A stretch of DNA of 17,158 bases, taken from contig VJWM01000405.1 of the NCBI GenBank assembly GCA_010909165.1, positions 1 through 17,158 of the forward strand, written 5' to 3'. Positions within the stretch are counted from its first letter, which is position 1, and each line of letters begins with the position of its first letter. The notes below the pieces were generated by a model, which was not told the origin of the DNA, did not search any database, and saw only the letters and a program-made list of their open reading frames with translations. This DNA comes from Anthoceros angustus. Its lineage: Eukaryota; Plantae; Anthocerotophyta. The position numbers and the translations under genes are program-made. Shown in pieces: positions 1-17,158 of this stretch.

Positions 1-718
1 CGAGGCACACACAAAGCGGTACATCTTGGTGGCAACGGACTCGCACGGTGGGTGGAGCGGTGCTACTAGGGCGGACTCTGACGGTGGCCAAATTCCTCTG
101 AAAACATCATCACAAGGTGCAGGGTGTCGTTGCGGTAAGTAGCGATAGGGGAACTCATTTCCTCAATGATGTGATAGCAATGACGGACTATTTTGGCATC
201 ACACATCGTAAAAGCGGCCCCAAAGGCCAGCGGATTGTGGAAGACCAGCGGACTTATCGCGCATCCTGAATAAGCTACGGTCAATTATGCATACGGTAGG
301 ATACAAAGCTACCATCGGGCTATATGGGCCGGGAGGAGGTAACAGAACTCATTACTAGCCTATGGGCACTCACCCGTTATGCGGTGAGTTTGAGGTGCCA
401 ACACTCCATCATGATGGAGGCGCAACGGATGAAGAGCCAATGGGCGCTTGCTAGGGTTTGTTCAGCATACGGAGGGTCGAGAAGAGGCGAGAGAATGCAA
501 GGCTGTGCATCGTTGTGGCGGAGGCTCGGGAGAGTATGTGAAGGAGGAGATTTGGCCCTTCTTTGACGGCCGCCATATGCACTTCCGGGTAAACTCCACT
601 TGCGATGGATGGACCTTACCGGTGAATGCGGTATCGCCAATGGGTCCGTTCAACGGCGTTGGATGGTGAGCTGCCCACTCGTGTGAGCGGGTGGCGGGTG
701 AAAAAGTATCATGCCTAG
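1..718 (+). mobile_element. Ty3/gypsy integrase core and C-terminal GPY/F region, degenerate and 5'-truncated by the window edge
   Basis: Frame-jumping translation gives KRYILVATD...TVAKFL-ENIITR...SDRGTHFLNDVIA.MTDYFGITHRKS...LPS..WA, then DLALLFDGRHMHF-GKLHLRWM-PYRV..VSPNG...LDGELPTRVSGWRVKKY, with a stop at 716-718. No chromodomain is evident. Confidence 0.9.
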
Positions 719-1800: not shown

Positions 1801-2431
1801 CACGGAACTTGCTCACCAAGGTGGATCACCTTGTGATAATTTCTTGTGTTCACACATGCGTTGCGGCGGGGGAAGAGGGAGGAAGGATCATCTTGGCAGT
1901 TGGAGAGGCCGCAGGCCGAGAGAAGCCCTCGCATCGGACTATCCCCATACCGATCCATGTATGGGGACATTTAGCTCTGAAGGATGGGGAGATAGGCGGG
2001 CGCTCGGAAAGGTTGGCGGCCCTACGAGTGGAGGCAGGCAAGGGCGGGAGGAGGCCCCCTAGGCCAAGCGGTCGGGAGGAGGGCAGCAGGAAGGATATCG
2101 GACTCCATACGTGCGAGCGGACCCCTCACCACCCGAGCAGTGTGGGAAGATATCCCGCTTCCTCCTCCCGTGCCTCATGGGAACAGCAGTCAAGAAGCGA
2201 GGCAGGGCCCAGCGGCAGGCCCACCACCACCGGCCACAGCGTGAGAGGATTGGACTTGGGCTTCGCCTCCTCTCCTTGGCCTTGGGTGGGCTTCTCTCCT
2301 TGGCCTTGGACTTGGTCCCCTCTCTAGTCCTCAAGCCTTGGGACTTGGGCCTCTCCTTTGGCCTTGGGCCCCTCCCTAGGCCTCAAGCCGTGGGCACACT
2401 TTAGAGAGTCCCTTGCCTACTTGTTTAAAGA

Positions 2432-2552
2432 GCTAGTGTCGCCTCGCCTAGCACGGCCTAGCATCGCCTAAGGTCGCTTAGCATCACCTAGCATCGCCTA
2501 GTGTCACCTAGCATCGCCTAGCATCACACTAAGCCTAGCACGGCCTATCTAG
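2432..2552. repeat. 10-bp tandem repeat, consensus GCATCGCCTA, about 8 in-register copies plus degenerate flanks
   Basis: 2451-2530 reads gcacggccta gcatcgccta aggtcgctta gcatcaccta gcatcgccta gtgtcaccta gcatcgccta gcatcacact. Confidence 0.9.
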
Positions 2553-2821
2553 TGTACACACACGAGATCATAGCTTGTAACAACAGGAGGGAGTAGCTCG
2601 CGCATCGTGGCACAAACACACTCTCCCCACGAGAACAACACACAAATTCCTCACACATTGCTCTCGGAGTCATGGCTTTGGCCTCCTCATAACACCCTTG
2701 CATTGCATCTAGAGGACAAGCTATGATCTGAGCTTGTCCTTAATGGAAGGGTTTGTATATACTAGCCCTTGGCATCGGCATATTCCTAAGATATCCTATT
2801 GGCATCAGCATATGCTGGAAA

Positions 2822-2962
2822 TATCCTAAGAATACACTATAATATGCAAGGAATATGCTAAATCATATTACTTGAGCTTATCCACTTAGCTATTGTATCC
2901 TAAGAATACACTATAATATGCAAGGAATATGCCAAAGCATATTACTTGAGCTTATCCACTTA
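2822..2962. repeat. Direct duplication of about 67 bp with a 74-bp period, in an AT-rich LTR-like region
   Basis: tatcctaagaatacactataatatgcaaggaatatgc...catattacttgagcttatccactta occurs at 2822-2888 and 2896-2962 with few mismatches. Confidence 0.9.
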
Positions 2963-3094
2963 TATATTACTAACCATGTTTAATTAACACTAATCAATGC
3001 TTAATGAACATAAGCACCTTAGATTAATTAATACTAATTACTTACTTAAAGATAAGTAATTAGATTAATTAATGATAATCAAACACTAAACCCA

Positions 3095-3483: not shown

Positions 3484-3855
3484 ATCGCATTCTGCCCAAT
3501 GGAGTGACGCCGCACTCTACCAAGGTTTAGGCCATCCTTCAAGTCAAGGAGCCTACCAATGTTTCGGCGCTACGAGCTTTCTTGGGTCTATGCAACTACT
3601 ACCGAGTATACATCCAAAGCTTCAGCCGAATAGCCAAGCCCCTAAACGACCCGCTGCGCAAGGATGTCAATTGGGAATGGACAGAGGCGGTTCGCCAAGC
3701 CTTCAATCCTTGAAGGCAAGGTGGCCGAGGCACACGCCATGGCTGTGCTGATTTGGGAAGCCCTTTGTGGTCCACGACGACTAGAGCATCTTGGGACTTG
3801 AGCTGGCCGGCCCAATTAGATGAGGAAGGGTAGGAGCGAGTGATCGCCATGCCCA
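3484..3855 (+). mobile_element. Ty3/gypsy RT C-terminus, connection domain and start of RNase H (decayed)
   Basis: Translates as ILPNGVTPHSTKV*AILQVKEPTNVSALRAFLGLCNYYRVYIQSFSRIAKPLNDPLRKDVNWEWTEAVRQAF..LK, then KPFVVH.D*SILGL....QLDEEG*ERVIA.A. It contains in-frame stops. Confidence 0.9.
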
Positions 3856-4883
3856 AGAGGCCTCAGATTAGAGAGGAATTGTCAGAGCCACTAATGAGGA
3901 GCTTCCTAGAGAAAATCTTAGTGATCAATGGTCTGCAAGAATCCCTGGAGCTGCCTAGTTGAGGTGGGCCTACGGGATATTTGAGGACGAGAGTAAGGGC
4001 TTTGAGGGGGATCATTGAGTTTATGGTACGCCACAAGCCTTGTATTGAGAGAGTCGTGGAGAGCCTAGCTAGTGAGTTTGTTGTCGAGTGAAGGGCGAGC
4101 CAATTGGGTGTAGATAGCCGACTCAAGTGTGTATTCTATGAATAAAGAGCACCTTGAGGAGGTGGCCTACGAGTCGATGGACAACGGCTACTGGAGCCTA
4201 GGTTGCGCCTTGAGATTGAGAGCTCGAAAGTTGTGCTCGGTGGAGTGATTGACGAAAGTCCTAAGACCGTTGGAAGCCAGCACTTACCGCTTCTCACCGG
4301 CTGCCTAGTGAGGGGCGTTAAAGGTAGTGAGTAAAGTATTCAGTGATTGCCCACGGAGTTGAATAAGCTAGATATTCAGATTTCTTTATGGCAGTCTCTA
4401 CTTTTCCTGCCTGTATTTAGCAAGAGCGTCGATCTACCCTGATTGCGTTGTGTGTCATAGCTTGCTTTGACCAAGGAGGGCACTCGAATGAATGTGGTAC
4501 TTGAGTTTTAGGTGGCGAGCTATTCAGTAGAGGTAAAAACAATGGGCTTCACTTGTTGGCATCGTCGTTTTGTCTCTCTGCGCGTGATTCTCTGCACAGA
4601 GTTGGCTGGGCAAGCCCTGTGCGCCCTTCCACGCCTGCGAAGCCTGTGATGGATCTGTCGCTGTTGAATCGAAATTCGCTATCTGAATAGTTTAGAAACC
4701 ACAGTGCGATGGGTTTCCGGTCCTTACATTACGGATAAAGGTCCTTGGACTTGAGGACCAGGATGGGAACTGCTATTTCGGCATACCGTTCATCGGTCCG
4801 CTGATTGCACTGGATGTAACTGTAGTAGACCGCTTGTTGGTGGCTATGTTGTCGAGAATAATCGCCAGCTCAGCACCGGAAGG

Positions 4884-7800
4884 TTGGCCGCAAAATGGTG
4901 GGGACGCTCGAGCAGCAGTTTAGTCCGCCCCACGACGGTGTTCGCCAGTCAGGGCCGAAGATTTGGGAAAATGTGGTGGTACAACCAATTACTGGTCCTA
5001 TGGTTTATTGTGGGGTTCTGCAGCTCTGTGTTCTTGTATCATCATCTCGATACTTCAAATCTGGAGCGCCGACAGGAGACTCTCTCAAGTATGTGCGATG
5101 AACGGGCCCGGATGCTGCAAGATCAATTTGTTGCAAGTATGAATCACGTCCGAGCGCTTACAGCACTGGTCACTACCTTTCATCTTGAAAACAGCCATCA
5201 GCATTAGACCAGGTGAGAATTGTATCAGCTAGGTTCGTCTCCTGCTGTCGATAACACGAAATTGGGTACCTACCAGACAACGTGCATTTTGGACTTTACT
5301 GAGAATTGGCCAAGGGCTCCTCAGTTCTCAACTTCCCTGATACGGTCTCGCTTGTGTTGTTGCGTTTGCGCAGAAAACTTTATACCTACGCTGCCAGGAC
5401 AGCGTGTGAACGGCCACTTATGAGTGGAGTAGCGTATGCGCAAAAGTGCTTCATCAGGAAAGAGAGGCTTTTGAAAAGGAGCAAGGGTGGAGTATTGAAA
5501 GATGCACCCAGGGACTGGCAGCTTGTAGAAGATGAGTATGCGCCTGCTACCCTGACACAGGATACAGTTGGGTATTTGACATCGCTAGACCTCATGTCGG
5601 GCCAGGTAATATACTTGAGTGGTTCGTAGTCGGCTCTTGAGGTTCTGGCTAACCATCTTATGATAACACGTTATCATGGTTATGTAGGAGGATAGGGAAA
5701 ATATCTTACGTGCCAGAGCGTCAGGCAAGGGTGCATTGACAAGTCCCTTCAGGCTTCTTACAAACCACTTGGGGATTGTATTTACTTTCGCTGTGTATAC
5801 GGACGATCTCCCTCCAGATGCCACCCCTGAACATCGGATTGCACATTGTGCTGGGTAGGTGCTTTGTCCACTTATAACACAAGGATGCCTAATGTGCGCA
5901 TGTAGACAGAACTTTTCTTCTATGACTCAGCACATCAAGCACTTCGTTTTCCACTGTGCTAGAGGTCACAATTTGTGTTCGGTGAATGTTGCAGCTATCT
6001 TGGTGGGGCATTTGATGTGGAGTCCCTAGTGGAAAAGTTACTGCGGCAGCTTGCTGGAAGTTCCACAATTGTGGTTAACGTTTATGACACTACCAACCAT
6101 TCACTTCCACTTGTCATGTATGGATCCTCTCCTGACAATGAGAACCACTACGTTAGCAGCTTGACTTCGGAGATCCTTTACGAAAGCATGAAATGCGATG
6201 CAGGTAAGTATGGTGAAAGAAGCCTGTAGATTTATTACAGTTCTGTCTGGATAATTGACCCTGCGTCACTGTACAGGTTTGTGGACCCACGACCTGTGCC
6301 ATGGTCAGCCGTATGGGCATCTGTTGGGCTTTTTGTAATCTTCCTGCTACTTGGTCAAATCGGGTTTGCAGCTTATGCGAAGAATTTCCCAGGTGGAGGA
6401 GGACTATAAGAAGATGGAAGAATTGAAGCTACGAGCAGAATCTGCTGATGTTGCTAAGTCTCAGGTGAGGTGCATCCACCAGTCCACATGTGTTGCTTTT
6501 ATAGTTGCGGTGCTGACTCTCAACATGTTTTACTCTTGCCTGATGTGGGCTACTGTGCTGAACCTTATGCAGTTTCTGCAACAGTCTCCCATGAAATTCG
6601 TGACCCAATGAACGGAGTACTTGGTAAGCAGAGCGAAAACTGAGTGTCTTGTTTGACCTCTTGAGTAGCTTGGTGATAGTCAATCAGTGATAAGACCTAA
6701 AAGGCTGCATGTTGTACAGGCATGCTGCAGATGCTTATGGACACAAGTCTAGATTCGACTCAGATGGATTATGCGAGAACAGCTCAAGCTAGTGGGCAGG
6801 CATTGATCACTCTTATAAATGAGGTTCTGGATCAAGCGAAGATTGAATCTGGACGGCTTGAACTCGAGGCTGTCCCTTTGATTTAAGTGCCATTCTTGAT
6901 GACGTTGTGTCTTTGTTTTCATCCAAGTCACGCCGACAAGCACCTTTGAGGTTCTTCCTCACTCTACTTGTTTGGAGGACATAAACTTTTGTTATGTGGG
7001 TTTCCTTGAAGTCTTTTGAGCTTGCACGTGCCTCTGATTTTTTCCTGGACCGTTTGCAAGCTATTGATGGAGTGAATGCTTATTTTAAAGTGGTTGGTGT
7101 GAGCAGCTTGCGGTCTTTGTTCGGACAGGGTGCCTCAGATGTTGGTAGGAGATCCAGGGTTCCGGCAGATTATCACTAATCTAGTGGGGAACTCTATAAA
7201 GGTCAGTGGTTGTTCGGATGGCCATCTTCGGTTTGATTGTGGTGATGTTGTGCACTTGTATGTCTGAAAAAGTAGCTAGTAGGCCGGCTATGTGTTGACT
7301 CAGTTGTTTAACCTCATAACTGGGTCACTCGGCCAGACTCTGTTGAATCATCGAGGTGCGCCACATTGGTCTAGGTGTCGAGCTCCTTGATCTTTGAGAC
7401 CATCACCCAATTAGCCTGCTGGGACCTTTCTGCTTACTATTTTCAGAGGATGCTAACATTTTTGTCATTAGTGGACCAAACTTAAGATTCTAGGTCTGGG
7501 AGATACTGCTTTGCATACAGGCCTTCACTGCATCGTTTCTCTTAGGCCCAAAATGGGAACTAAGGGAGTTGATTACGCTAGAGGTGATTAGAAATGACTG
7601 ACGCAACTTGCATGCAGTTCACCGGACGTGGACACATTTTCCTTTGTGTGCACTTAGCTGAAGATATGGATACGGTGATGGAGGCATTGGAGCATGATAG
7701 CACCAGTCTCTGTTGTGAAGAGGGTACAGACGGTGTAATCCGAAAGTCTTGTGACTCGCTCAGTGGGTTTGAAGCTGCAGATGGCCGAAATTGTTGGAAC

Positions 7801-9463
7801 ACATTCAACCTCCTGCTACAGAAAGGGGCCCATCGAGGGCAATCACAGATACATCTGGTAGTTCAGATGATAAAGTCACCTTGTTTGTTAGTGTGGAAGA
7901 CACTGGTGTGGGATTCCTCTTCATGCGCAGGAACGTGTGTTCACCCCTTTATGCAAGCAGACAGCTCCACGCACGTATGGAGGAACGGGATTGGACTGAG
8001 TATCAGCAGATGCCTTGTCGAATTGATGAGCGGCGAGATGAGCTTCATCAGCCAACCAGGAGTTGGAACAACGTTCACATTTACTGCAGTGCTTCGAAAG
8101 GCAGCATCTGGCATGCATGAGGGCTTGAGGTACCCATTGCAGGTTTCAAACCAATTCACGGGTAAAAGAGCTCTTGTTGTGGATGGGAGGCCTGTCCGGG
8201 CACATGTGACTCAGCAGCACTTGCGGCGGCTGGGAGTTCAGGTGGATATAGCCATCGATATTCCCTCTGCCATGTCGTTCTTCACGTGGCAAGCAGACAT
8301 TGTATCATCAACAAACAGTCGGTATGCCATTACATATCCTAAGTAGGCTCTTTCCTTTGCTGTTTGCATGCCGTATTGCCAGCATAGATCTTCAAACTGA
8401 GGACAGCTTTTTTGTTCTGATACAAGGTGGAGACTGTGTGTAGATAGTTACATTCCCAAGTGCAATCGAGTGTGTGAACTTGACTCTTTACGACCTTGTT
8501 CTTTGCCTTATTCTCTTTCAGGTCAACAAGCACTGTCGATATGGTTCTGGTTGACAAAGATTCCTTTGGTCCTGGTACTGGCCTTTCTTTTCCTCGACAT
8601 ATTCTACTATCAAATTTTAGGTCTGGGTCGTCTGTCAAACTGCCTGTCCTTATTCTTGTTGCCACCTCACTCACTGATGAGGAGCTACAACACGCAAGAC
8701 ACGGCTGGATATGAAGACTTTGTTATTCAAAGCCTCTGGCGAGCATGCTTGCTACCAGTCTTGAGCTGGCTTTAGGATTGCTCAGCAAGGGTGACCAAGG
8801 AGGAGCTCTCTCAAAGTTTCCTAGCTCTTCAGAAACTTCTTTCTGGAAAATGTATTCTGGTGGTGGATGATAACATAGTCAATCGCAGAGTAGCTGGAGG
8901 ACACTAAGTATGGAGCCAAAGTTGAATGTGCTGAAAGTGGAAGGCTGCAATCAAGATGCTTCAACCACCCCATGACTTTGATGCCTGCTTTATGGATGTT
9001 CAAATGCCTGAGATGGATGGGTAAAATCACGAGCCTCCTTTTGCTAGGCGATTAAGTCGTCATTGTTTTGCCATTTCCAAGGCTGTCATCCAATTCCAGC
9101 TGTGAAGCTAGTTCACATCATCCAGCTGATTATATTTTGAGATTGTTCGGTTTCTAGCTTATATCTGGGCTGACATAGCCGGCTTGTTTCTCATCTTGTG
9201 ATCGCATGCAGTTCTCAAGCCACGAGACACATTCGTAAGGCGGAGTGGGCAATCATGCAAGGACTCACTAGTGAGATGAATGGAAACATAGTGCGGAAGT
9301 CTGATACATGGCATACACCGATACTGGCAATGACTGCTGATGTAATACAAGCCACACATGAGGAATGCTTGCGCTCTGGTATGGATGGCTATGTTGCTAA
9401 GCCTTTGACGAGGACCAGCTGTTTAAAGCCATTATCACAGTTTTTCAATCTTCCAAAGTGTGA
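4884..9463 (+). CDS. CHK: CHASE-domain hybrid histidine kinase (cytokinin receptor, AHK4/CRE1/CHK family), 11 coding exons; start codon uncertain (~4650-4971)
   Basis: Approximate exons, all with GT-AG introns: <4884-5212, 5374-5605, 5688-5854, 5995-6203, 6277-6464, 6573-6623, 6720-6950, 7107-7201, 7618-8321, 8522-9020, 9212-9463. Motifs in order: TM LLVLWFIVGF; CDERARMLQDQF..SMNHV; DEYAP; EDRENILRARASGKGALTSPFRLL; YLGGAFDVESLVEKLL; second TM; AKSQFLATVSHEIR.PMNGVLGM (H-box); NLVGNSIKFT (N-box); VEDTGVG and GGTGIGLSIS (G-boxes); pseudo-receiver ALVVDGRPVR; receiver ILVVDDN.VNRRV, FMDVQMPEMDG, PILAMTADVIQATHEECLRSGMDGYVAKPF. Confidence 0.96.
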
Positions 9464-9478
9464 AGATTTTTATTGATT

Positions 9479-9506
9479 GATTGGATATGTTGTTAAGCCT
9501 TTGACG
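9479..9506 (+). repeat. Short imperfect duplicate of the CHK C-terminal coding segment (DGYV.KPFD) just 3' of the stop
   Basis: 9384-9410 gatggctatgttgctaagcctttgacg versus 9479-9506 gattggatatgttgttaagcctttgacg. Confidence 0.75.
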
Positions 9507-9844
9507 GAAACTTCCTTCACTTCACAAAACTAAGGTTTACGACGAAGACCAGCGGTTGAACCTGCAGATCACTTTTTACTCCACTGATTGAGAATATTTT
9601 CTCTTACGTTGAAGAGTTTGTTACAAGGAACTGGGTGTTCCTTCCCTTGAAACCATGACCGCGGTGAGAACTTTGTACACCAAATCTGAACACTGGTGTA
9701 TTACATTTTTTATGAGAGTCGTCCTCGTGTCACTCCCAGGTTGGACCGGACTCATGAAAGGATGTGGAAGACTCACAACTACATTATAAAGCATTCCTCC
9801 CTACACGCTGAACCTGTAAATGATCATGAGTGACAACAATGAAG

Positions 9845-10155
9845 ATAGCTTAGGATCCTCCGGAGCATAGCTGGTGATCGTTGGAAGAAGAGTGAAGGAA
9901 GCATTGGGTCTTCACCAAGAAAGGTTGAAGGAAACCAAGTGGAAGATCCAGACCGCAGCCGGGACCACAGAGCATGTGTTGGGGGTGACGAGGTACAAGC
10001 TAAAGGTTTCATTCAAACCAAGATCATCTGATTTATCTTGGTCGAGGTACACTGCTTGGTCACTGATGCAAACACATTTGATGTCTTGCTGGGAGCGGAC
10101 GCTTTGTACAAACCTGGAGTCATGGTGGATTTGTGGACGGAGACAATCTACTAAT
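9845..10155 (+). mobile_element. Ty3/gypsy-type retropepsin (aspartic protease), decayed
   Basis: Translates as LGSSGA*LVIVGRRVKEALGL...WKIQTAAGTTEHVLGVT (remnant of the D-S-G-A active site plus flap). After a frameshift it reads VEVHCLVTDANTFDVLLGADALYKPGVMVDLWTETIY, the C-terminal D-V-L-L-G motif. Confidence 0.8.
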
Positions 10156-10399
10156 ACGTGCTTGAACCTCTTGGGGTGTGTCTAACAACCGCAGCTGACA
10201 TAATGGAGGATTTCGACGAGGAGGAGGAAGACAAGCTAGGGTTGCAACTACCCTCAGAGGAGGTTCTTCAAGTCAGCCGGACGGAGCTGGTGACTACAAT
10301 GAATGAGTGCAAAGTTGTGGAGGATGGTGCAAGAGGACCGGTTCTATGAGCCGAGAAGGCCAGAAGTTCTTGTCTAGGGTTGAGCCTGCTTTGTGAAAC

Positions 10400-10625
10400 A
10401 CCAAGTGATCACATGGCGACCTGGAAGACAACAACATAGTGCTGGTGGAATTTTTGAGGTATCAAGATGCTTGAAAGCGATCTTGAAATGTGGCATCAAA
10501 GTACAAAGATAAGTGCATTGTGACCCGGATCTGAAAGCAAGGATTGTGTCACTGAAGCGCGTAAAGGACTTGATGGGGGAGTACCCTAACCTCATGACGT
10601 GGGAGTCAGTGAAGGGTTACCAGAA
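10400..10625 (+). pseudogene. N-terminal part of a C5 DNA-cytosine methyltransferase (DNMT3-like) domain within the gypsy polyprotein, truncated by the copia insertion
   Basis: With small indel corrections at the TTTTT run (10451-10455) it reads NIVLVEF(F)GGI..CL.AILKCGIKVQR*VHCDPDLKARIVSLKRVKDLMGEYPNLMTWESVKG. This resembles motif I (F-x-G-x-G) and the motif II acidic residue. The catalytic PCQ motif is absent because the sequence is cut at 10625. Confidence 0.7.
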
Positions 10626-10891
10626 TGATGAAATATATGTAGTTTAGGGCACTATTTATTAGGGCACCTTTACTTAAACATTAGTTTCCATCTAGGGCTT
10701 TAAGTAGTTATTTAATTAGTTGCTCTAGGTGTAGTTGTTATATTAGTTGCAACTACCTAGTGGTTACAACAACTTATGGTTGTAACCACTAACCACCTAA
10801 CCACCTAGCCTATATAAAGGCTTGCACTCTTTACTTTCTTAATTCAATTGTATTGTAGCACTTTGTGCCTAAGAGCTATTGATTCTCATCA
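10626..10891 (+). mobile_element. 5' LTR (266 bp) of a Ty1/copia element
   Basis: Starts TGATGA and ends TCATCA (6-bp terminal inverted repeat), contains TATATAAA at 10811-10818, is AT-rich, and is immediately followed by a PBS. Confidence 0.88.
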
Positions 10892-10903
10892 TGGTATCGA
10901 GCC
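10892..10903 (+). promoter_or_regulatory. Primer-binding site complementary to initiator tRNA-Met
   Basis: TGGTATCGAGCC lies directly after the LTR CA; the canonical site is TGGTATCAGAGC (one base missing). Confidence 0.85.
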
Positions 10904-11071: not shown

Positions 11072-11911
11072 ATGGATTCTCTCAATCCTAGCGAACATGG
11101 AAGAAGGTGGAAAGTTAAGACACAGAGAAGGAGGAGGCAACAACAAAACTTCATAGAAGTATCATCAGAGGAATTTGATACTTACTCCCCTATTGAATAT
11201 GATATGCTTGAAGTCCATGTTGGTAACCTTATATTTGCTCTCTCTGAGTCTGAACACGAAGCAAAGTCCATCTCCCTAGCTAGAAGAACTTTGCTTTCAA
11301 CATTTAGTCTTTATCAAATAGGATGTATTGAGTCCGCAATTATTCAATTCATCAACAAAAGACTACAACTTTCTTCCCAAATCCGGATAAACTGTAAAAC
11401 ACTCAACTCCATTAGATCAAGCTATTCAAATATATACTTCGATGAGAGATTGATTATCTTACCCAAGAGATACATTTAATCTCTACACGTTGAGAAACTA
11501 ATCAAAAGAAGTTGATACTCGACCTTCGTTGGAGCAATACAAATACTTGCAAAAGAACAATGAAGAAATGCAGCACGTGCTCACGCGTCATTCCCAAAGT
11601 TATTAAGAGAACTCCGCGTCAAGCACGATCCAGCTATCTTCATTGATATTGAACATCACCTGCAATGTTTGAGGAGCAAGTAGTTGACGAAGTTACAAAT
11701 TCAGACGCAGACGTCGATAAACTTAAAAAATGGCTTGCTGAAGAAAGAGCCAAATGGGAAGAAGAGTGGAAAAGAAAGACTTCTGACTCTGCACATACAA
11801 CTGTGGTTCATGGAGAAGGCTTCAAGGAGAAAGATAGATTCAATGGAAAAGGATATGACGTTTGGCAAATACGTGCCAAAGGAGTATCATGACAACGTGA
11901 CTTATGGGATA
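11072..11911 (+). mobile_element. Copia gag, N-terminal part, possibly with a long N-terminal extension
   Basis: ORF pieces 11072-11479 and 11665-11892. The latter ends FKEKDRFNGKGYDVWQIRAKGVS*QRDLWD, resembling the copia gag N-terminal motif (xKLNGxNYxxW...DLWD), and is cut at 11911. Confidence 0.7.
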
Positions 11912-14449
11912 AACATTATAATTTTGAAGGGTGAATAATCTCAAAGGGGTTTTCCAGAATAATCTCTCAAGGGGTTTTTGATGGGCCCTAAAACAACGCT
12001 CAAGGCATTCCGGAAAACATCTCCAAAAAAGGGTGTCACCACTAAAGTTCCTACTTTCCATCCAAAGAATGTTTCATCGAATGGTGGTTGCAAACTCGAA
12101 CCTATGGGATTAATGCAAAGTAGGAGCGGTGAGGAAGGCCGTTCCTGCCGGGAAGAGACGATAGTTTGGGAGGAAAATGTGGTTTAGTAAGGACAACAAA
12201 AGCCACGGATGTAGTATTTCCAAAACACAAAACATTTGGAACCGATGTTCAACATTCACCCTCGGGACAAACCGTGATTTCGCCACTCATCAGAGTTCAA
12301 TCCTTCGTCATCACTTGGTCCAAATTTTCTCCAAAGATTGTCATCACTATCTTCGGCACTTTGACTCGCAGTTGTATGAAGCGCAACTCGCAGAGCTTAT
12401 CCCTTATCGCTTTTTGTCCACCATACACATGTTTCGCGCTCAACACAAACCCATAATACATGTTTCATTCTACAAACACCTCAGATGTTTTTGGGTAATG
12501 GACCTTATTCCCTTTTTCCCCAGACGACCGTATGGGTTACACTGACGACTATGTATTCCTACACATATCTCCCTTCATACGATCCGTGGTGCTCGGTCCG
12601 ATACCGGATAAGAAAGTGAGGTCGTGGTGCATCTAGCTTCACACAATGACTCTCCCAATCCGAATGGCCTGTGTGTATCCATAGTGCACGGCGGAAAACA
12701 TCCTTGATTTCCATTATGTCCCCATTCATCGCCATTCCCATCGTTGCCTTCCATTTTGATATGCCCCCAAGTACATATCACTGGGAGGTCCTCAATAATG
12801 CCTCATCTAGCAAAGCTTCATCCGCACTTGAAGTGGTCAGTCAGATGATCCACTTCGCACGTGAAAACCACTTCCAAGGACGTGTAGCACTAGCCCAATG
12901 TTATTCTCCACAATGATAGCAATCTCCTTCCGTCCACCCAAAAGGCTTCCCACCACTTGTACTCTTCAATACCACCTATGGACGCAAATCTTTTAACCCT
13001 TCCCCGCAATGGGCCACACCTTCCATCGGTGATAGGATACCCGCTGCCCTTCTTGTCCCCCCTAGCTTCACCCAGATGCACTGAGGATGGTGCAGGAGGG
13101 CACCGGCCGCGCCCCCAAGATGCTCGCCATGGGCCGGCCGCCCCCCACGCTACCATGCCCATGCGCCCGGCGGTCCCCAACAGCCCACCATGCCATGGGC
13201 GCCTGCCCCCACCCCCAACACACTGCCACGGCCGCCTCCTAGCACACTCGCCCATGGGCCGGGCCCCCCCAGCACACCGCCCATGGGCGCCGCCGCCAAC
13301 GCCCTAGCACACCCCGCCCATGGGCGCCGCCGCCGGCGCCTCAGCACACTCGCCCATGGGCGCCGGCGAGCCCCCCCCACACGCCTTGCCCCGCCATGCC
13401 GGCCGGCGCCCCTAGCACACCCGCCTACCCATGGATGCGCCGCCGGTTTTTAAGCGAGCTCCAACAATATTCAACTGCCGTCAAATGGCTTAGTCCAAAT
13501 GGCACACATACGAACGCCATGGCCTACACTACAAGCGCCCGGATGGGTACCTAGAGAGGAATTTAGCGCCTAGTTTACCCATGGAGCGCCGAGTACCTCC
13601 CATGGCAGTCGAGTGGACTTCAAATAATTTTTTTGTTTGTTTGTTTGTTTGTTGGTCGAGTGTTTGGGAAAAAAGTGTAGTAATGAGTAGGTCTCGTGTT
13701 CAAAACCCATATCCCCTTGGCAACTTAAATTTGTTGATTTTAAGGATGCTTACATGGGCGCATGGGCAACTAACTTTGTTCATTTTAAGGACGCTGCCAT
13801 TGCCTTAAAGCCCAAGTGGTTGCATTGAGTGCCAAAAGAGGTTGAAGACCACGACTGGCGACCTTTTGGATGAGGGTCCAGAGACCCTAGATGTCAGGTG
13901 GCGCCGACACGGACGCTAGGCCCAAGAATGGTACTATTGAAGACGAGCAAGCAATGGAGGAGAACGACAACTTTGAGGCGGAGGATATGGACCGCCTAAT
14001 ATGGCGGTGGTACTTGACTGGCCAGGCAAGGCATGGATGAGTCGCCAGGCCGCACTCTTGAATGACTATTGTCGATGCTGATGACCACTTCCTCCTTTAG
14101 CAGTTGTTTGTTGCAATGTCCTCACGACTATTGAAATGAAACTCCTGCTACTATAGGATTATTTTCATTGTGTTCCACCACTTGAAAGTAAAAGTTTTCG
14201 GTTGTAATAAACATATGAAAATGGCAGCCCTCTATGCATTCTACAAAAAATGCAGACGGGCCCACACCCTAATGTGCTCCAGCCTCGTGTAGACTTGAAA
14301 GTGCGTCTTTTATCAAAGGTATGACCTCGTAAAGGGTGCGCAATTATCAAAGTAGGCGATAGACATGGGAAGGTGTACATCGTGACAAAGGGGTGTTGTC
14401 TCGACCGAAGGAGGTTACTATATTCCCCCCCTTCAAAAATTATCATGTT
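11912..14449. mobile_element. 2538-bp TIR DNA element, apparently non-autonomous, with GATA target-site duplication, inserted in copia gag
   Basis: Left end aacattataattttgaagggtgaata (11912-11937) and right end tattcccccccttcaaaaattatcatgtt (14421-14449) are imperfect inverted repeats. GATA flanks both sides (11908-11911 and 14450-14453). Removing the element restores tta tgg gat att gtt agc = LWDIVS. Confidence 0.85.
13190..13445. repeat. GC-rich minisatellite of ~30-37 bp, core AGCACAC(T/C)CGCCCATGGGCGCC
   Basis: AGCACAC recurs at 13241, 13271, 13306, 13343 and 13414, with repeated CCATGG and GGCGCC palindromes. Confidence 0.85.
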
Positions 14450-16510
14450 GATATTGTTAGCCATGATATTGATCGTCCCCTCTGGAATCAGGACTCTAAA
14501 GCAAAATGGGACATCAAGGATCAGAAGGCTCAAGATATCATCATAAGTGGACTTACCGAATCAATGGTTCGACAAGTCTCAGAAGCATATACCTCCAAGG
14601 AAATGTGGGACCGTCTTGCTCAAATATATGCTTCAAATGATGTGATGAGCATATTGACGGCCACCCGAAATTTCTAGAATCTCAAGATGAGAGAAAACGA
14701 TTCCATTGAGAGCCATATTAGTACTTTTAGATTGGCTAAAATAACCTTGAAGCGATCCGGCGAAAAATCCGAAAAGAATGCATTCATTAGTCTCTTATCC
14801 ACTCTACCACCTTCCTATCGGGCGTTCGTGACAACATAAAATGCCGTCCTTCGTAATGCACAGAAGACAATGGCATCTGACGGTTCCTCAACGTTGGATA
14901 TCAGCTTAAATGAGCTCATAGGAGCCATAATACAGGAGGACTCCTGCCATCGTCACGACACTCGCTCCACCAGACAACAAGTGATGTTCACTGGAAGAGG
15001 CAGAGGTAGAGGCCGAGGCCGTGGCCAAGGCAGAAGACCCAATACCTCTCGCCCATATATCAACTTCCCTCATGGAGAATCTACATCTTCTTCAACGCAA
15101 AAGGTAAAAAGAAGATTGGAGTTATTTGTAATTGGTGTAGAATACAATCATATGGAGAAGGATCAGAATAAGAAGAAGAATGGCGAGCCTAGAAAGGAGG
15201 CCGCACCTGGAGCACATATTGCTGTGAAGAAACAATCTTCGTCAACACCATCAGCTCTCACTGTATGCTTGGCATCATCAAGCCAACAAACCCATATTGG
15301 TACTTGGACTGGAGCTACATCACACATCCGAAACTCTTTTGAGTCCTATTCGCCACAGGACACCGCATCGCCCCATCATGGCGACCACAACCTCCCATCT
15401 CTAGTGTCTCCTTTACGTTTCTCGATGTTCTTCGTGCCAAGTTCTCTCTCTCTCTCATGTCCTTCATGTACCATCCATGTGTAAAAACTTAGTGTTTGCT
15501 GCTAGCTTATGTTTAGAACATAGTATGCAAGTCATTTTAAACGCAGATAGTCTTATCTTATCTTCCGAGTAAGTCACACACCATCTCGCACTTTAGAGGA
15601 CGGTCATATAAACTGTGTCCAAGTGGGTTCTTACATGATAGAATACATGAAGCCCAAAATTCTCAACATCCTCCAACACCATACTTTGGCATTGCCGCTT
15701 ACGTCATCCTAACAGCCAAAACTGCTTCAAATGTCTAAGGGAAATCTCTATAGAAGTCCTTCCTTTCCATGATAGAACCACTATCCTCGTGTGAAGCTAT
15801 GTCGTAACCAAAAGACATCAAGCTCCCTTCCAAAATAACTCTCCACATGGGCTATATCACCCTTGAGTTAGTTCACATAGACATTTGCGGCCCGTCGCAC
15901 CATCCTTAGTGGTTGTAAATATTTCCTTACTTTCATTGATGATTTCTCCTGCTTCACCTCAACATATATCCTTAAACACAAAAGTGAAGCTTTTCAGTAC
16001 TTTAAGGACTACATGATGTGGCGGAGAGACTTACGATAAGAAACTCAAGACCCTCCGTTCCGACAATGGCGGCAAGTTTACTTCACATGCCTTTCGATTT
16101 TTGTCGAGCTCAAGGCATTGCTCAACAACTCACATTGTATATACGCCTGCAAAATGGGGTAGCGTAAAATAAGAACTTACGCCTTCAAGAGATCGCAGTT
16201 GCTTGCTCTCCCGTGCCAAATTAACCAAATCATATTAAGTGTAAGCAATGCTTACAAAGAATATCTCATTAATCGAATGCCAACCTCTGCTAAAGGTATG
16301 ACACCTTATGAAGCATTCACCGCAAAAGCCTTCTATAGATCTTGGATTTTATCGTATCTGCTTTATGTTTTATTCCTAAAGCACGCAAGAAACTAGATGA
16401 TAAGGTCGCCAAGTATACTTTTATTGGCTACATCAAGGCATTAAAGGATACAAATTATTTGATCTTGTTACCAAGAGACCAATATACTCTAGGAGGCTAC
16501 CTTTCATGAG
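14450..16510 (+). mobile_element. Copia gag (UBN2-type)-zinc knuckle-protease-GAG-pre-integrase-integrase, decayed; no RT or 3' LTR in the window
   Basis: Motifs in order: WDIKDQKAQDIIISGLTESMVRQV...SKEMWDRLAQIY; LLSTLPPSY; GRGRGRGRG; C-x2-C knuckle remnant; HIWYLD-GATSH (~15290-15330); VLHVPSMCKNL; LELVHIDICGP; KYFLTFIDDFS; KTLRSDNGGKF; QNGVA; INRMPTS; RKKLD; FIGY; GYKLFDL. Confidence 0.93.
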
Positions 16511-16606
16511 TCTCCAATACTATCTCCTTCTGGATTCTCTGCCTCTTCCACGATGAGAATCATCTGCCTCGTTTTGATGATGACCGCTGTGAAGCATGAA
16601 AAGTTT

Positions 16607-16734
16607 GGGACTACCGGTGTCCCGAGTATGAGCTTGTCCCGGGCAACTCCACCAATCTTATTTGTGAGGACTATGGGACGCTTGTCCCATAGGGATAGTC
16701 CCGGCAGTCCCTGGCCGTGGGATTGCCATGTCCC
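16607..16734. repeat. Cluster of GGGAC/GTCCC inverted repeats (several hairpins)
   Basis: gggac-taccggt-gtccc (16607-16623); ctatgggac-gctt-gtcccatag (16671-16692, perfect 9-bp stem); ggga-tag-tccc; ggcagtccc-7nt-gggattgcc (16703-16727); ends in gtccc at 16730-16734. Confidence 0.8.
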
Positions 16735-17158
16735 ACCGGGTTGATGGGGCTGGCGAACGGGTTTCTGGCGCTGTTCGTGCTGCGGCTCGGGTGCGGCATG
16801 TTCGAAGCCGGGGCGTACCCGCTGGCGGCGGGTATCGTCCGCACCTGGATGCCACCTTCCGTCCGCGGGTTCGCCAGCGGGTGCGTGTCGGTCGGCGGGC
16901 GGCTGGGGCCATCGCACCGGTGCTGACTATCGCGCTGGCAGGGGTGGCGACGGCGGAAGCGTTCGGCGCCGTGTTGGGCGGGCCGGGGATGATTCCCTCC
17001 ACCGACGGCTGGCGGCGGCCGTTCTTCGTATGCAGGATGATCAGGGTGGCCGGGGCGATCCCGTTCTGGCTGTGGTACCGCAACCGCCCGCGGGAACACC
17101 CGGCGGTGAACGCGGCCGAGGCCGACCTGATTGACGGCGGTCAGCGGCCCGCTCAATC
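16735..17158 (+). CDS. Fragment of a bacterial-type MFS transporter (ACS/ExuT-GudP-like), lacking its N-terminus and running off the window
   Basis: Translates as TGLMGLANGFLALFVLRLGCGMFEAGAYPLAAGIVRTWMPPSVRGFASGCVSVGGRLG, then after a frameshift AIAPVLTIALAG...GWRRPFFV...FWLWYRNRPREHPAVNAAEADLI. It is intronless, visibly ~70% GC and GC3-rich. Confidence 0.85.

What the first reader, a model, noticed from the sequence alone, without database searches (positions are those of the whole stretch)
9845..10625. Gypsy retrotransposon remnant carrying a DNA-cytosine methyltransferase after its protease
Seen: a retropepsin is followed on the same strand by an acidic linker (EDFDEEEEDK) and then IVLVEF(F)GGI..CL.AILKCGIKVQR(Y)VHCD...ARIVSLKRVKDLMGEYPNL. 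The ORF track does not show this because it is split by indels and a stop. Known: C5-DNMTs begin with motif I (F-x-G-x-G), and DNMTs captured by retrotransposons have been reported in dinoflagellates and the charophyte Klebsormidium (de Mendoza et al. 2018), where they were proposed to methylate the element's own cDNA. Inference: this is a protease-DNMT-(RT) element in a land-plant genome, i.e. a TE that may write its own epigenetic marks. I cannot tell whether it is described for this lineage.
Basis: partly seen in the sequence, partly recalled or inferred. Interest (0 to 1): 0.85.

Follow-up and report, generated by a model that had tools for sequence, protein, structure and literature searches.

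The report
Dead retrotransposon stub with DNMT3 start
This is a broken, cut-off piece of a plant jumping gene whose relatives carry their own DNMT3-type DNA-methylating enzyme, likely used to mark their new copies; the kind is described in print from a green alga, and this copy likely extends it to a further land-plant lineage.

Summary
Window 9856-10625 is a ~770-bp stub: retropepsin, linker, then the first ~75 codons of a DNMT3-type cytosine methyltransferase (motif I), cut at 10626 by a Copia LTR. Direct searches found nothing, but 120 Gypsy loci fetched by an RT motif settled it. 52 of 56 with enough upstream DNA carry a DNMT between protease and RT, and both window pieces match them in order (profile E 1.5e-6, 6.7e-11, 2.4e-11). 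Their DNMT passes PF00145, is closest to DNMT3A/B and is under purifying selection. The window is an error-rich long read: a short-read contig lacks the motif I frameshifts but lists no change at the stop codon. The copy is dead, and its catalytic motifs are absent. It is a third subfamily, about as far from the two fetched ones (24-40%) as they are from each other (26-47%). One fetched subfamily puts the DNMT in Gag-PR-DNMT before a UAG-CARYYA readthrough signal. Closest known: KnitGypsy-Dnmt3 of Klebsormidium. Nine paper searches on the topic found no land-plant report. This scan noted the same kind before on other DNA (16 notes, moss- or liverwort-like). Self-methylation is inferred, not shown.

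The parts
9856..10160 (+). Retropepsin (aspartic protease) remnant, split over two frames, with a stop and no readable catalytic Asp
   Evidence: tblastn to the protease of fetched Gypsy loci, E down to 4.7e-7; profiles iE 6.7e-11 and 2.4e-11
10161..10401 (+). Linker with the acidic tract EDFDEEEEDK; not conserved in relatives
   Evidence: protease-to-motif I distance 580 nt here against 662-672 nt in 13 loci
10402..10625 (+). N-terminal ~75 codons of a DNMT3-type C5 cytosine methyltransferase: pre-motif ITWxP, motif I (SAM-binding loop), second strand and the family's extra helix
   Evidence: the frameshifts are absent from the X1 contig
10510..10512 (+). In-frame TAA stop inside the DNMT piece
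   Evidence: the X1 contig covers it and lists no other letter there
10626..10891 (+). 5' LTR (TG...CA, TATA box at 10810) of a Copia element that cut the DNMT
   Evidence: another X1 contig starts matching exactly at 10626 with unrelated letters before it (table 7)
10892..10903 (+). Primer-binding site of the Copia element (TGGTATC..., initiator-Met type; type recalled)
11653..16590 (+). Copia gag/pol remains, with a nested insertion at about 11920-14480; no 3' LTR and no DNMT remainder in the window
   Evidence: Retrotran_gag_2 E 1.7e-13 at 14363-14674
4487..9790 (+). Neighbouring host gene: CRE1/AHK4-type cytokinin receptor, spliced, ending about 65 bp before the stub (context, not part of the element)
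   Evidence: Receiver_CRE1 E 4e-14 and HATPase_c; ten joints in X1 contigs, most read as GT..AG

Best explanation
The stretch is a dead, truncated copy of a Ty3/Gypsy-type retrotransposon whose polyprotein carries a DNMT3-type cytosine methyltransferase right after the protease, and active members of the family likely use that enzyme to methylate their own cDNA. Shown: the protease and the start of the DNMT are collinear with relatives that read Gag-zinc finger-protease-DNMT-RT-RNase H-integrase-PHD; this copy lost everything after DNMT motif I to a Copia insertion and holds a stop, so it makes no enzyme. Inferred: in live copies the protease would release the DNMT inside the particle, where it would methylate new cDNA (probably CG, as shown for the dinoflagellate Dnmt3 domains), so that a new insertion arrives already marked. 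The C-terminal PHD finger seen in relatives would steer integration by histone marks.
For: Window pieces match relatives in order and at similar spacing. The loci were fetched by an RT motif alone, yet 52 of 56 with at least 2400 nt upstream hold a DNMT (43 of 45 distinct). L034 ORF1: PF00145 E 1.8e-13, above the cut-off, after an aspartyl protease match; ORF2: RVT_1, RNase H, integrase, PHD. The best PDB matches are DNMT3A/B (E 3.7e-8 for a single protein, 3.8e-12 for the profile), ahead of DRM2 and M.HhaI (1e-5 to 1e-4), with motifs I, IV, VI, VIII, IX and X aligned. dN/dS over the DNMT is 0.11-0.14 in 3 of 3 pairs. The family is repeated in the host: five short X2 contigs at depth 80-664 cover 10489-10552 against about 9.6 for the single-copy gene, and a second diverged copy continues upstream with a motif I-like end. 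Dinoflagellate retro-Dnmt3 domains methylate CG in yeast (PMC5890265).
Against: The window piece alone has no Pfam, PDB or protein-database methyltransferase hit (the two hits are TPR repeats). Identity to the nearest relatives is only 24-45%. Motifs IV-X and RT are not in the window, so this subfamily's catalytic state and RT linkage are untested. The large fetched subfamily (113 of 120 loci) has WECQ and ENT in place of PCQ and ENV. KnitGypsy-Dnmt3 gave no methylation in yeast, which the authors call inconclusive. CpG observed/expected of the stub (0.54) is no lower than that of the host gene (0.57). Two of the three dN/dS pairs are near saturation (dS 1.35-1.45). The predicted model of L034's domain was weak (pLDDT 46.6).
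Confidence: 0.85

Rival explanations
1. Same identity, but the DNMT domain is kept as a non-catalytic or differently specific module that binds DNA, RNA or SAM inside the particle and does not write 5mC on the cDNA.
For: The large fetched subfamily has WECQ/ENT variants of motifs IV and VI. The Klebsormidium domain was inactive in yeast. There is no extra CpG depletion in the stub.
Against: The catalytic Cys, the motif VI Glu-Asn and both motif VIII Arg are kept in both fetched subfamilies, and L034/L014/L079 have canonical PCQ/ENV. dN/dS is 0.11-0.14 across the domain.
Confidence: 0.3
2. A piece of the host's own DNMT3 gene (a pseudogene or captured exon) landed by chance next to an unrelated protease remnant.
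For: The stretch is a patchwork of nested insertions. The linker does not match relatives and is about 80 nt shorter. No plant DNMT3 sequence was available for a direct comparison.
Against: Protease and DNMT pieces match the same loci in the same order. The piece shares the ITWxP lead-in and the long helix after the second strand with the retroelement DNMTs, where DNMT3A has gaps. It is multi-copy in X2. Plant DNMT3s carry DUF3444 (PMC6453930), and the relatives show no such hit.
Confidence: 0.04
3. The motif I resemblance is chance in decayed repeat DNA, or an artefact of an error-rich read.
For: No hit of the piece alone in Pfam or PDB. The window has about one indel per 50-100 nt.
Against: Profile iE 1.5e-6 at exactly the expected place. 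z 9-17 against shuffles. A short-read contig spans the place, including the LTR junction, and removes the frameshifts.
Confidence: 0.02

Closest known systems
KnitGypsy-Dnmt3 of the charophyte Klebsormidium nitens (de Mendoza et al. 2018, PMC5890265; parts 1-4 of 7 of the text and passages read, reviewer file and species table searched; figures and the main supplementary PDF not seen)
   Same: Intronless Dnmt3-type domain inside a Gypsy polyprotein, unrearranged motif order, purifying selection on the domain, streptophyte host.
   Different: The host here is most likely a land plant, and this copy is a dead stub. In L034/L079/L014/L073 the DNMT lies before an in-frame stop, in Gag-PR-DNMT, not in one ORF with RT as described for Klebsormidium. 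No DIRS-like repeat arrangement was seen in L034 or L079 (the loci may be cut short). No Klebsormidium sequence was available, so common descent is untested.
SymbioDIRS-Dnmt3 and SymbioLINE-Dnmt (same paper); EpiLTRs of Cymbomonas and Euglena (bioRxiv 10.64898/2026.05.21.726589, passages read)
   Same: Retrotransposons that carry a C5 DNMT; SymbioDIRS-Dnmt3 methylates CG de novo in yeast.
   Different: Other retroelement classes, hosts and domain positions; the EpiLTR DNMTs are sister to DNMT4 and come with an adenine methylase and a chromodomain.
Host DNMT3 of non-flowering plants, PpDNMT3a/b (Yaari et al. 2019, PMC6453930, passages read)
   Same: DNMT3-type catalytic domain.
   Different: A cellular gene with a C-terminal DUF3444, not part of a retroelement polyprotein.

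Membership tests
Gypsy-DNMT3 elements (KnitGypsy-Dnmt3 kind) | Intronless Dnmt3-type domain in the coding region of a retroelement | tested here: met
   Window: protease then DNMT start, collinear with relatives. Relatives: PF00145, best PDB hits DNMT3A/B.
Gypsy-DNMT3 elements (KnitGypsy-Dnmt3 kind) | Gypsy domain order PR-RT-RNase H-integrase | tested here: inconclusive
   Met in L034 by Pfam and by its close match L079. The window copy is cut before RT, so it is assigned through its protease.
Gypsy-DNMT3 elements (KnitGypsy-Dnmt3 kind) | DNMT in the same ORF as RT | tested here: inconclusive
   Met in L033, where one ORF runs from motif VI into RT. Not met in 4 of 4 loci of the other subfamily that reach the place: TAG-CARYYA lies 126 codons before the RT motif. 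Not testable on the window copy.
Gypsy-DNMT3 elements (KnitGypsy-Dnmt3 kind) | Conserved catalytic residues (motifs IV, VI, VIII) | tested here: inconclusive
   Canonical in L034/L014/L079; WECQ/ENT variant in the large subfamily. Absent from the window copy through truncation.
Gypsy-DNMT3 elements (KnitGypsy-Dnmt3 kind) | [quoted passage not shown] | tested here: met
   0.107-0.144 in 3 of 3 pairs of relatives; not the window copy.
Gypsy-DNMT3 elements (KnitGypsy-Dnmt3 kind) | DIRS-like arrangement of terminal repeats | tested here: inconclusive
   No long terminal repeat pair in L034 or L079, but the contigs may end inside the repeats; the window copy has no termini.
Gypsy-DNMT3 elements (KnitGypsy-Dnmt3 kind) | DNMT and RT group with the Klebsormidium sequences in a tree | not testable with these tools
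C5 cytosine DNA methyltransferase (PF00145), functional enzyme | Complete motif set I-X in an open frame | tested here: not met
   The window copy has motif I only, a stop at 10510 and a Copia LTR at 10626; no PF00145 hit.
Host plant DNMT3 (PpDNMT3 type) | Stand-alone gene with C-terminal DUF3444 | tested here: not met
   Relatives are polyproteins without a DUF3444 hit; the window piece follows a retropepsin.

The most novel reading that the evidence does not exclude
Gypsy elements with a working DNMT3 are one ancient clade that has been inherited from charophyte algae into several land-plant lineages. This window is a third deep branch, in a small-genome non-seed plant (a hornwort or lycophyte would fit). 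In at least one branch the enzyme is made at Gag level, ahead of a leaky UAG-CARYYA stop, so each particle would be loaded with many methyltransferases that pre-methylate the cDNA before a PHD-guided integrase inserts it.
Probability: 0.35. Interest if true: 0.75.

Novelty: new member of a known kind. Interest (0 to 1): 0.5.

Why it matters
In plants cytosine methylation is the host's main tool against transposons. A retroelement clade that has kept its own DNMT3 under selection across deep plant lineages would show the element writing that mark for its own ends, or limiting itself. In print I found the plant case only for Klebsormidium, where activity was not shown. Intact relatives with canonical motifs in moss- or liverwort-type DNA would make the open question (does the element methylate its own cDNA, and to what effect) testable in tractable bryophytes. 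The window copy itself adds only range and depth: it is a dead 75-codon stub.

Tried and rejected
Pfam on the window pieces: no methyltransferase or protease hit. Word-based protein searches with the DNMT piece and with the protease-linker piece: nothing. phmmer against 1.84 billion representatives: 2 hits, both TPR-repeat proteins, rejected as repeat artefacts. PDB and phage searches with the piece: only chance hits. Protein-pattern scans of metagenome and viral contigs with the piece or with P0003: nothing confirmed; the RT pattern in viral contigs: none. No whole genome is held. The ESM Atlas gave no result. blastn of the window against the 120 loci: no hit, so no close DNA relative was fetched. 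AlphaFold of L034's DNMT: pLDDT 46.6; its Foldseek hits are DNMT3A/B but with rmsd about 16 A, so they carry little weight. CpG depletion is not informative. Expression: no RNA holder listed; X1 is only guessed to be RNA, so its contig over the stub does not show transcription. Look-ups of earlier notes by sequence and place: none for this DNA. Rows dropped: for the motif I profile, 22 of 31 segments were kept (duplicates and rows with more than 2 stops removed); for the protease profiles 13 of 17 and 22 of 31. The tree used the 9 loci that had all three segments.

Full report
Observation. There is a retropepsin in two pieces (9856-10035, 10035-10160) and an acidic tract near 10200-10232. A motif I-like string is spread over three frames at 10402-10509, followed by a TAA at 10510-10512 and 37 more codons. 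At 10626 a 266-bp LTR begins (TG...CA), followed by a TGGTATC primer-binding site at 10892, and a Copia gag follows downstream (Retrotran_gag_2, E 1.7e-13). An X1 contig that starts matching exactly at 10626 supports that boundary. No 3' LTR and no further DNMT motif lie in the window.

Quality of the window. Short-read contigs show that the window is an error-rich long read. One X2 contig of 3147 nt over the neighbouring gene has 4 substitutions and 32 gaps. That gene, a CRE1/AHK4-type cytokinin receptor, looks broken in the window but is spliced across ten joints in X1. An X1 contig spans 10246-10689, including the LTR junction. Over motif I it differs by indels at 10426, 10452, 10455 and 10468 that add up to a multiple of three, plus seven substitutions at 10465-10483, and it lists no change at the TAA. 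So the frameshifts in motif I are most likely read errors, while the stop and the truncation are real. Five short X2 contigs cover 10489-10552 at depths of 80-664, against about 9.6 on the single-copy gene, and one further contig continues upstream in a diverged motif I-like sequence. The tool warns that depth is no copy number, but the family is plainly repeated in the host.

Finding relatives. Direct searches with the 55-65 residue piece failed. A second Gypsy remnant in the window (RT/RNase H, 3486-3710) gave P0003 at 59% identity. The selection used RT only. Both pieces of the finding then hit these loci in order: the protease about 2050-2350 nt and motif I about 1560-1680 nt upstream of the RT motif. 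Profiles built from the loci hit the window only at the expected places, in six frames of 17 kb: motif I region iE 1.5e-6 (10402-10617), protease iE 6.7e-11 and 2.4e-11. Frameshift-aware alignment to 5 relatives scored 62-81, against shuffle means near 24 (z 9-17).

What the relatives are. 52 of 56 loci with at least 2400 nt upstream hold a DNMT (43 of 45 distinct). L034 is uninterrupted: ORF1 of 1369 aa (Gag-like region, CCHC fingers read by eye, protease, PF00145 E 1.8e-13) and ORF2 of 1047 aa (RVT_1, RNase H, integrase, PHD). The domain is closest to DNMT3A/B among solved structures, ahead of DRM2 and M.HhaI, with motifs I, IV, VI, VIII, IX and X aligned. dN/dS over the domain is 0.107-0.144 in 3 of 3 pairs, two of them near saturation. 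Two subfamilies appear. Type A (L014, L034, L073, L079 and short pieces) has PCQ/ENV in the three loci that hold the domain. In 4 of 4 type A loci that reach the place, an in-frame TAG followed by CARYYA lies 126 codons before the RT motif. Stop-CARYYA is the consensus plant readthrough signal (PMC5397192, passages), so the DNMT would be made at Gag level and RT-integrase by readthrough (inferred). Type B (113 of 120 loci) is decayed in the copies examined, has WECQ/ENT, and runs from the DNMT into RT in one frame in L033. The hosts of these contigs are not named; the labels peat moss and liverwort come from earlier notes of this scan and I did not test them.

Where the window copy sits. Over three segments it is 32-36% identical to type A and 24-40% to type B, while A and B are 26-47% identical to each other. 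In an unrooted tree of 10 rows it has its own long branch. There is no blastn match to any of the 120 loci. It is therefore a third, deep subfamily; read errors and decay inflate its distance somewhat. The host is most likely a non-seed land plant: the intron-rich CRE1-type receptor is shown, and the non-seed type of its sequence is from recall. X2 holds 97.6 million letters of contigs at single-copy depth near 10, and the receptor's introns are short (median 155 nt). A small genome such as a hornwort's or a lycophyte's would fit (recalled genome traits); a charophyte is not strictly excluded.

How it likely works. Shown: the anatomy above and the death of this copy. Inferred: in live members the protease frees the DNMT in the particle, the DNMT methylates new cDNA, and the PHD-bearing integrase places it. 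De Mendoza et al. proposed cDNA self-methylation and showed CG activity for the dinoflagellate Dnmt3 domains but not for the Klebsormidium one, a result they call inconclusive (PMC5890265). I put the identity at about 0.9 and the self-methylation mechanism at about 0.55. A non-catalytic role is the main rival.

What is known. KnitGypsy-Dnmt3 is the closest described element. A 2025 paper and a 2026 preprint cite the kind only as found in streptophytes, pointing back to the 2018 paper (PMC12344493; 10.64898/2026.05.21.726589; passages read). Nine searches on the topic turned up no report of such elements in a land plant; I judged most listed papers by title and abstract start only. Passages of the REXdb paper (PMC6317226), a Tat survey (PMC13468544), a land-plant TE review (PMC9033089), the hornwort chromatin paper (PMC10952607) and PMC11982613 mention none. 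The library lacks most subscription papers. The main supplementary PDF of the 2018 paper and the preprint's supplements could not be read and may show the domain order or more hosts. This scan has noted the same kind before: 16 notes held all my search words, and those shown describe moss- or liverwort-like DNA. None looks like this sequence.

Verdict. A real but dead stub of a Gypsy-DNMT3 element: a new, divergent member of a known kind, probably in a further land-plant lineage. The interest lies in the family (its apparent spread in land plants and the readthrough layout), not in this copy.

Noticed in passing
L034:5083-5091, L079, L014, L073: A conserved in-frame TAG followed by CARYYA separates Gag-PR-DNMT from RT-RNase H-integrase-PHD in 4 of 4 type A loci that reach the place: a likely stop-codon readthrough placed after the methyltransferase.
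   Followed up: partly
L012, L021, L023, L044, L067 and other type B loci: The large subfamily has WECQ in motif IV and ENT in motif VI instead of PCQ and ENV, while the Cys, Glu-Asn and motif VIII arginines are kept; the effect on activity is unknown.
   Followed up: partly
L034:8040-8180 (end of ORF2): A PHD finger (PF00628, E 2.6e-10) ends the integrase in place of a chromodomain; L079 has a similar end.
   Followed up: partly
window 4487-9790: An intact, spliced CRE1/AHK4-type cytokinin receptor gene that looks like a pseudogene only because of read errors; its transcript contig ends about 65 bp before the retroelement stub.
   Followed up: partly
window 16600-17158: Abrupt switch to GC 0.68, bacterial-looking MFS transporter sequence, held in X2 at depth 2.5 against about 9.6 for the host gene: probably a chimeric read or contaminant joined to the Copia integrase.
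   Followed up: partly
window 3486-3880: A second Gypsy remnant (RT end and RNase H start) of the same broad clade as the DNMT-bearing loci (43% to L061, 59% to P0003); whether it belongs to the same family as the stub is unknown.
   Followed up: partly
window 1-700 and 2300-3080: An integrase-like decayed frame read by eye, and a repeat-rich high-depth stretch with 10-, 30- and 74-bp tandem units, probably the 3' end and LTR of another retroelement.
   Followed up: no
window 11920-14480: A high-depth insertion nested in the Copia gag, with a GC-rich 37-bp tandem array at 13267-13365; class not determined.
   Followed up: no
window 10626-10891: The Copia LTR has no CpG and no CHG site at all (observed/expected 0), which suggests heavy methylation-driven decay.
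   Followed up: no
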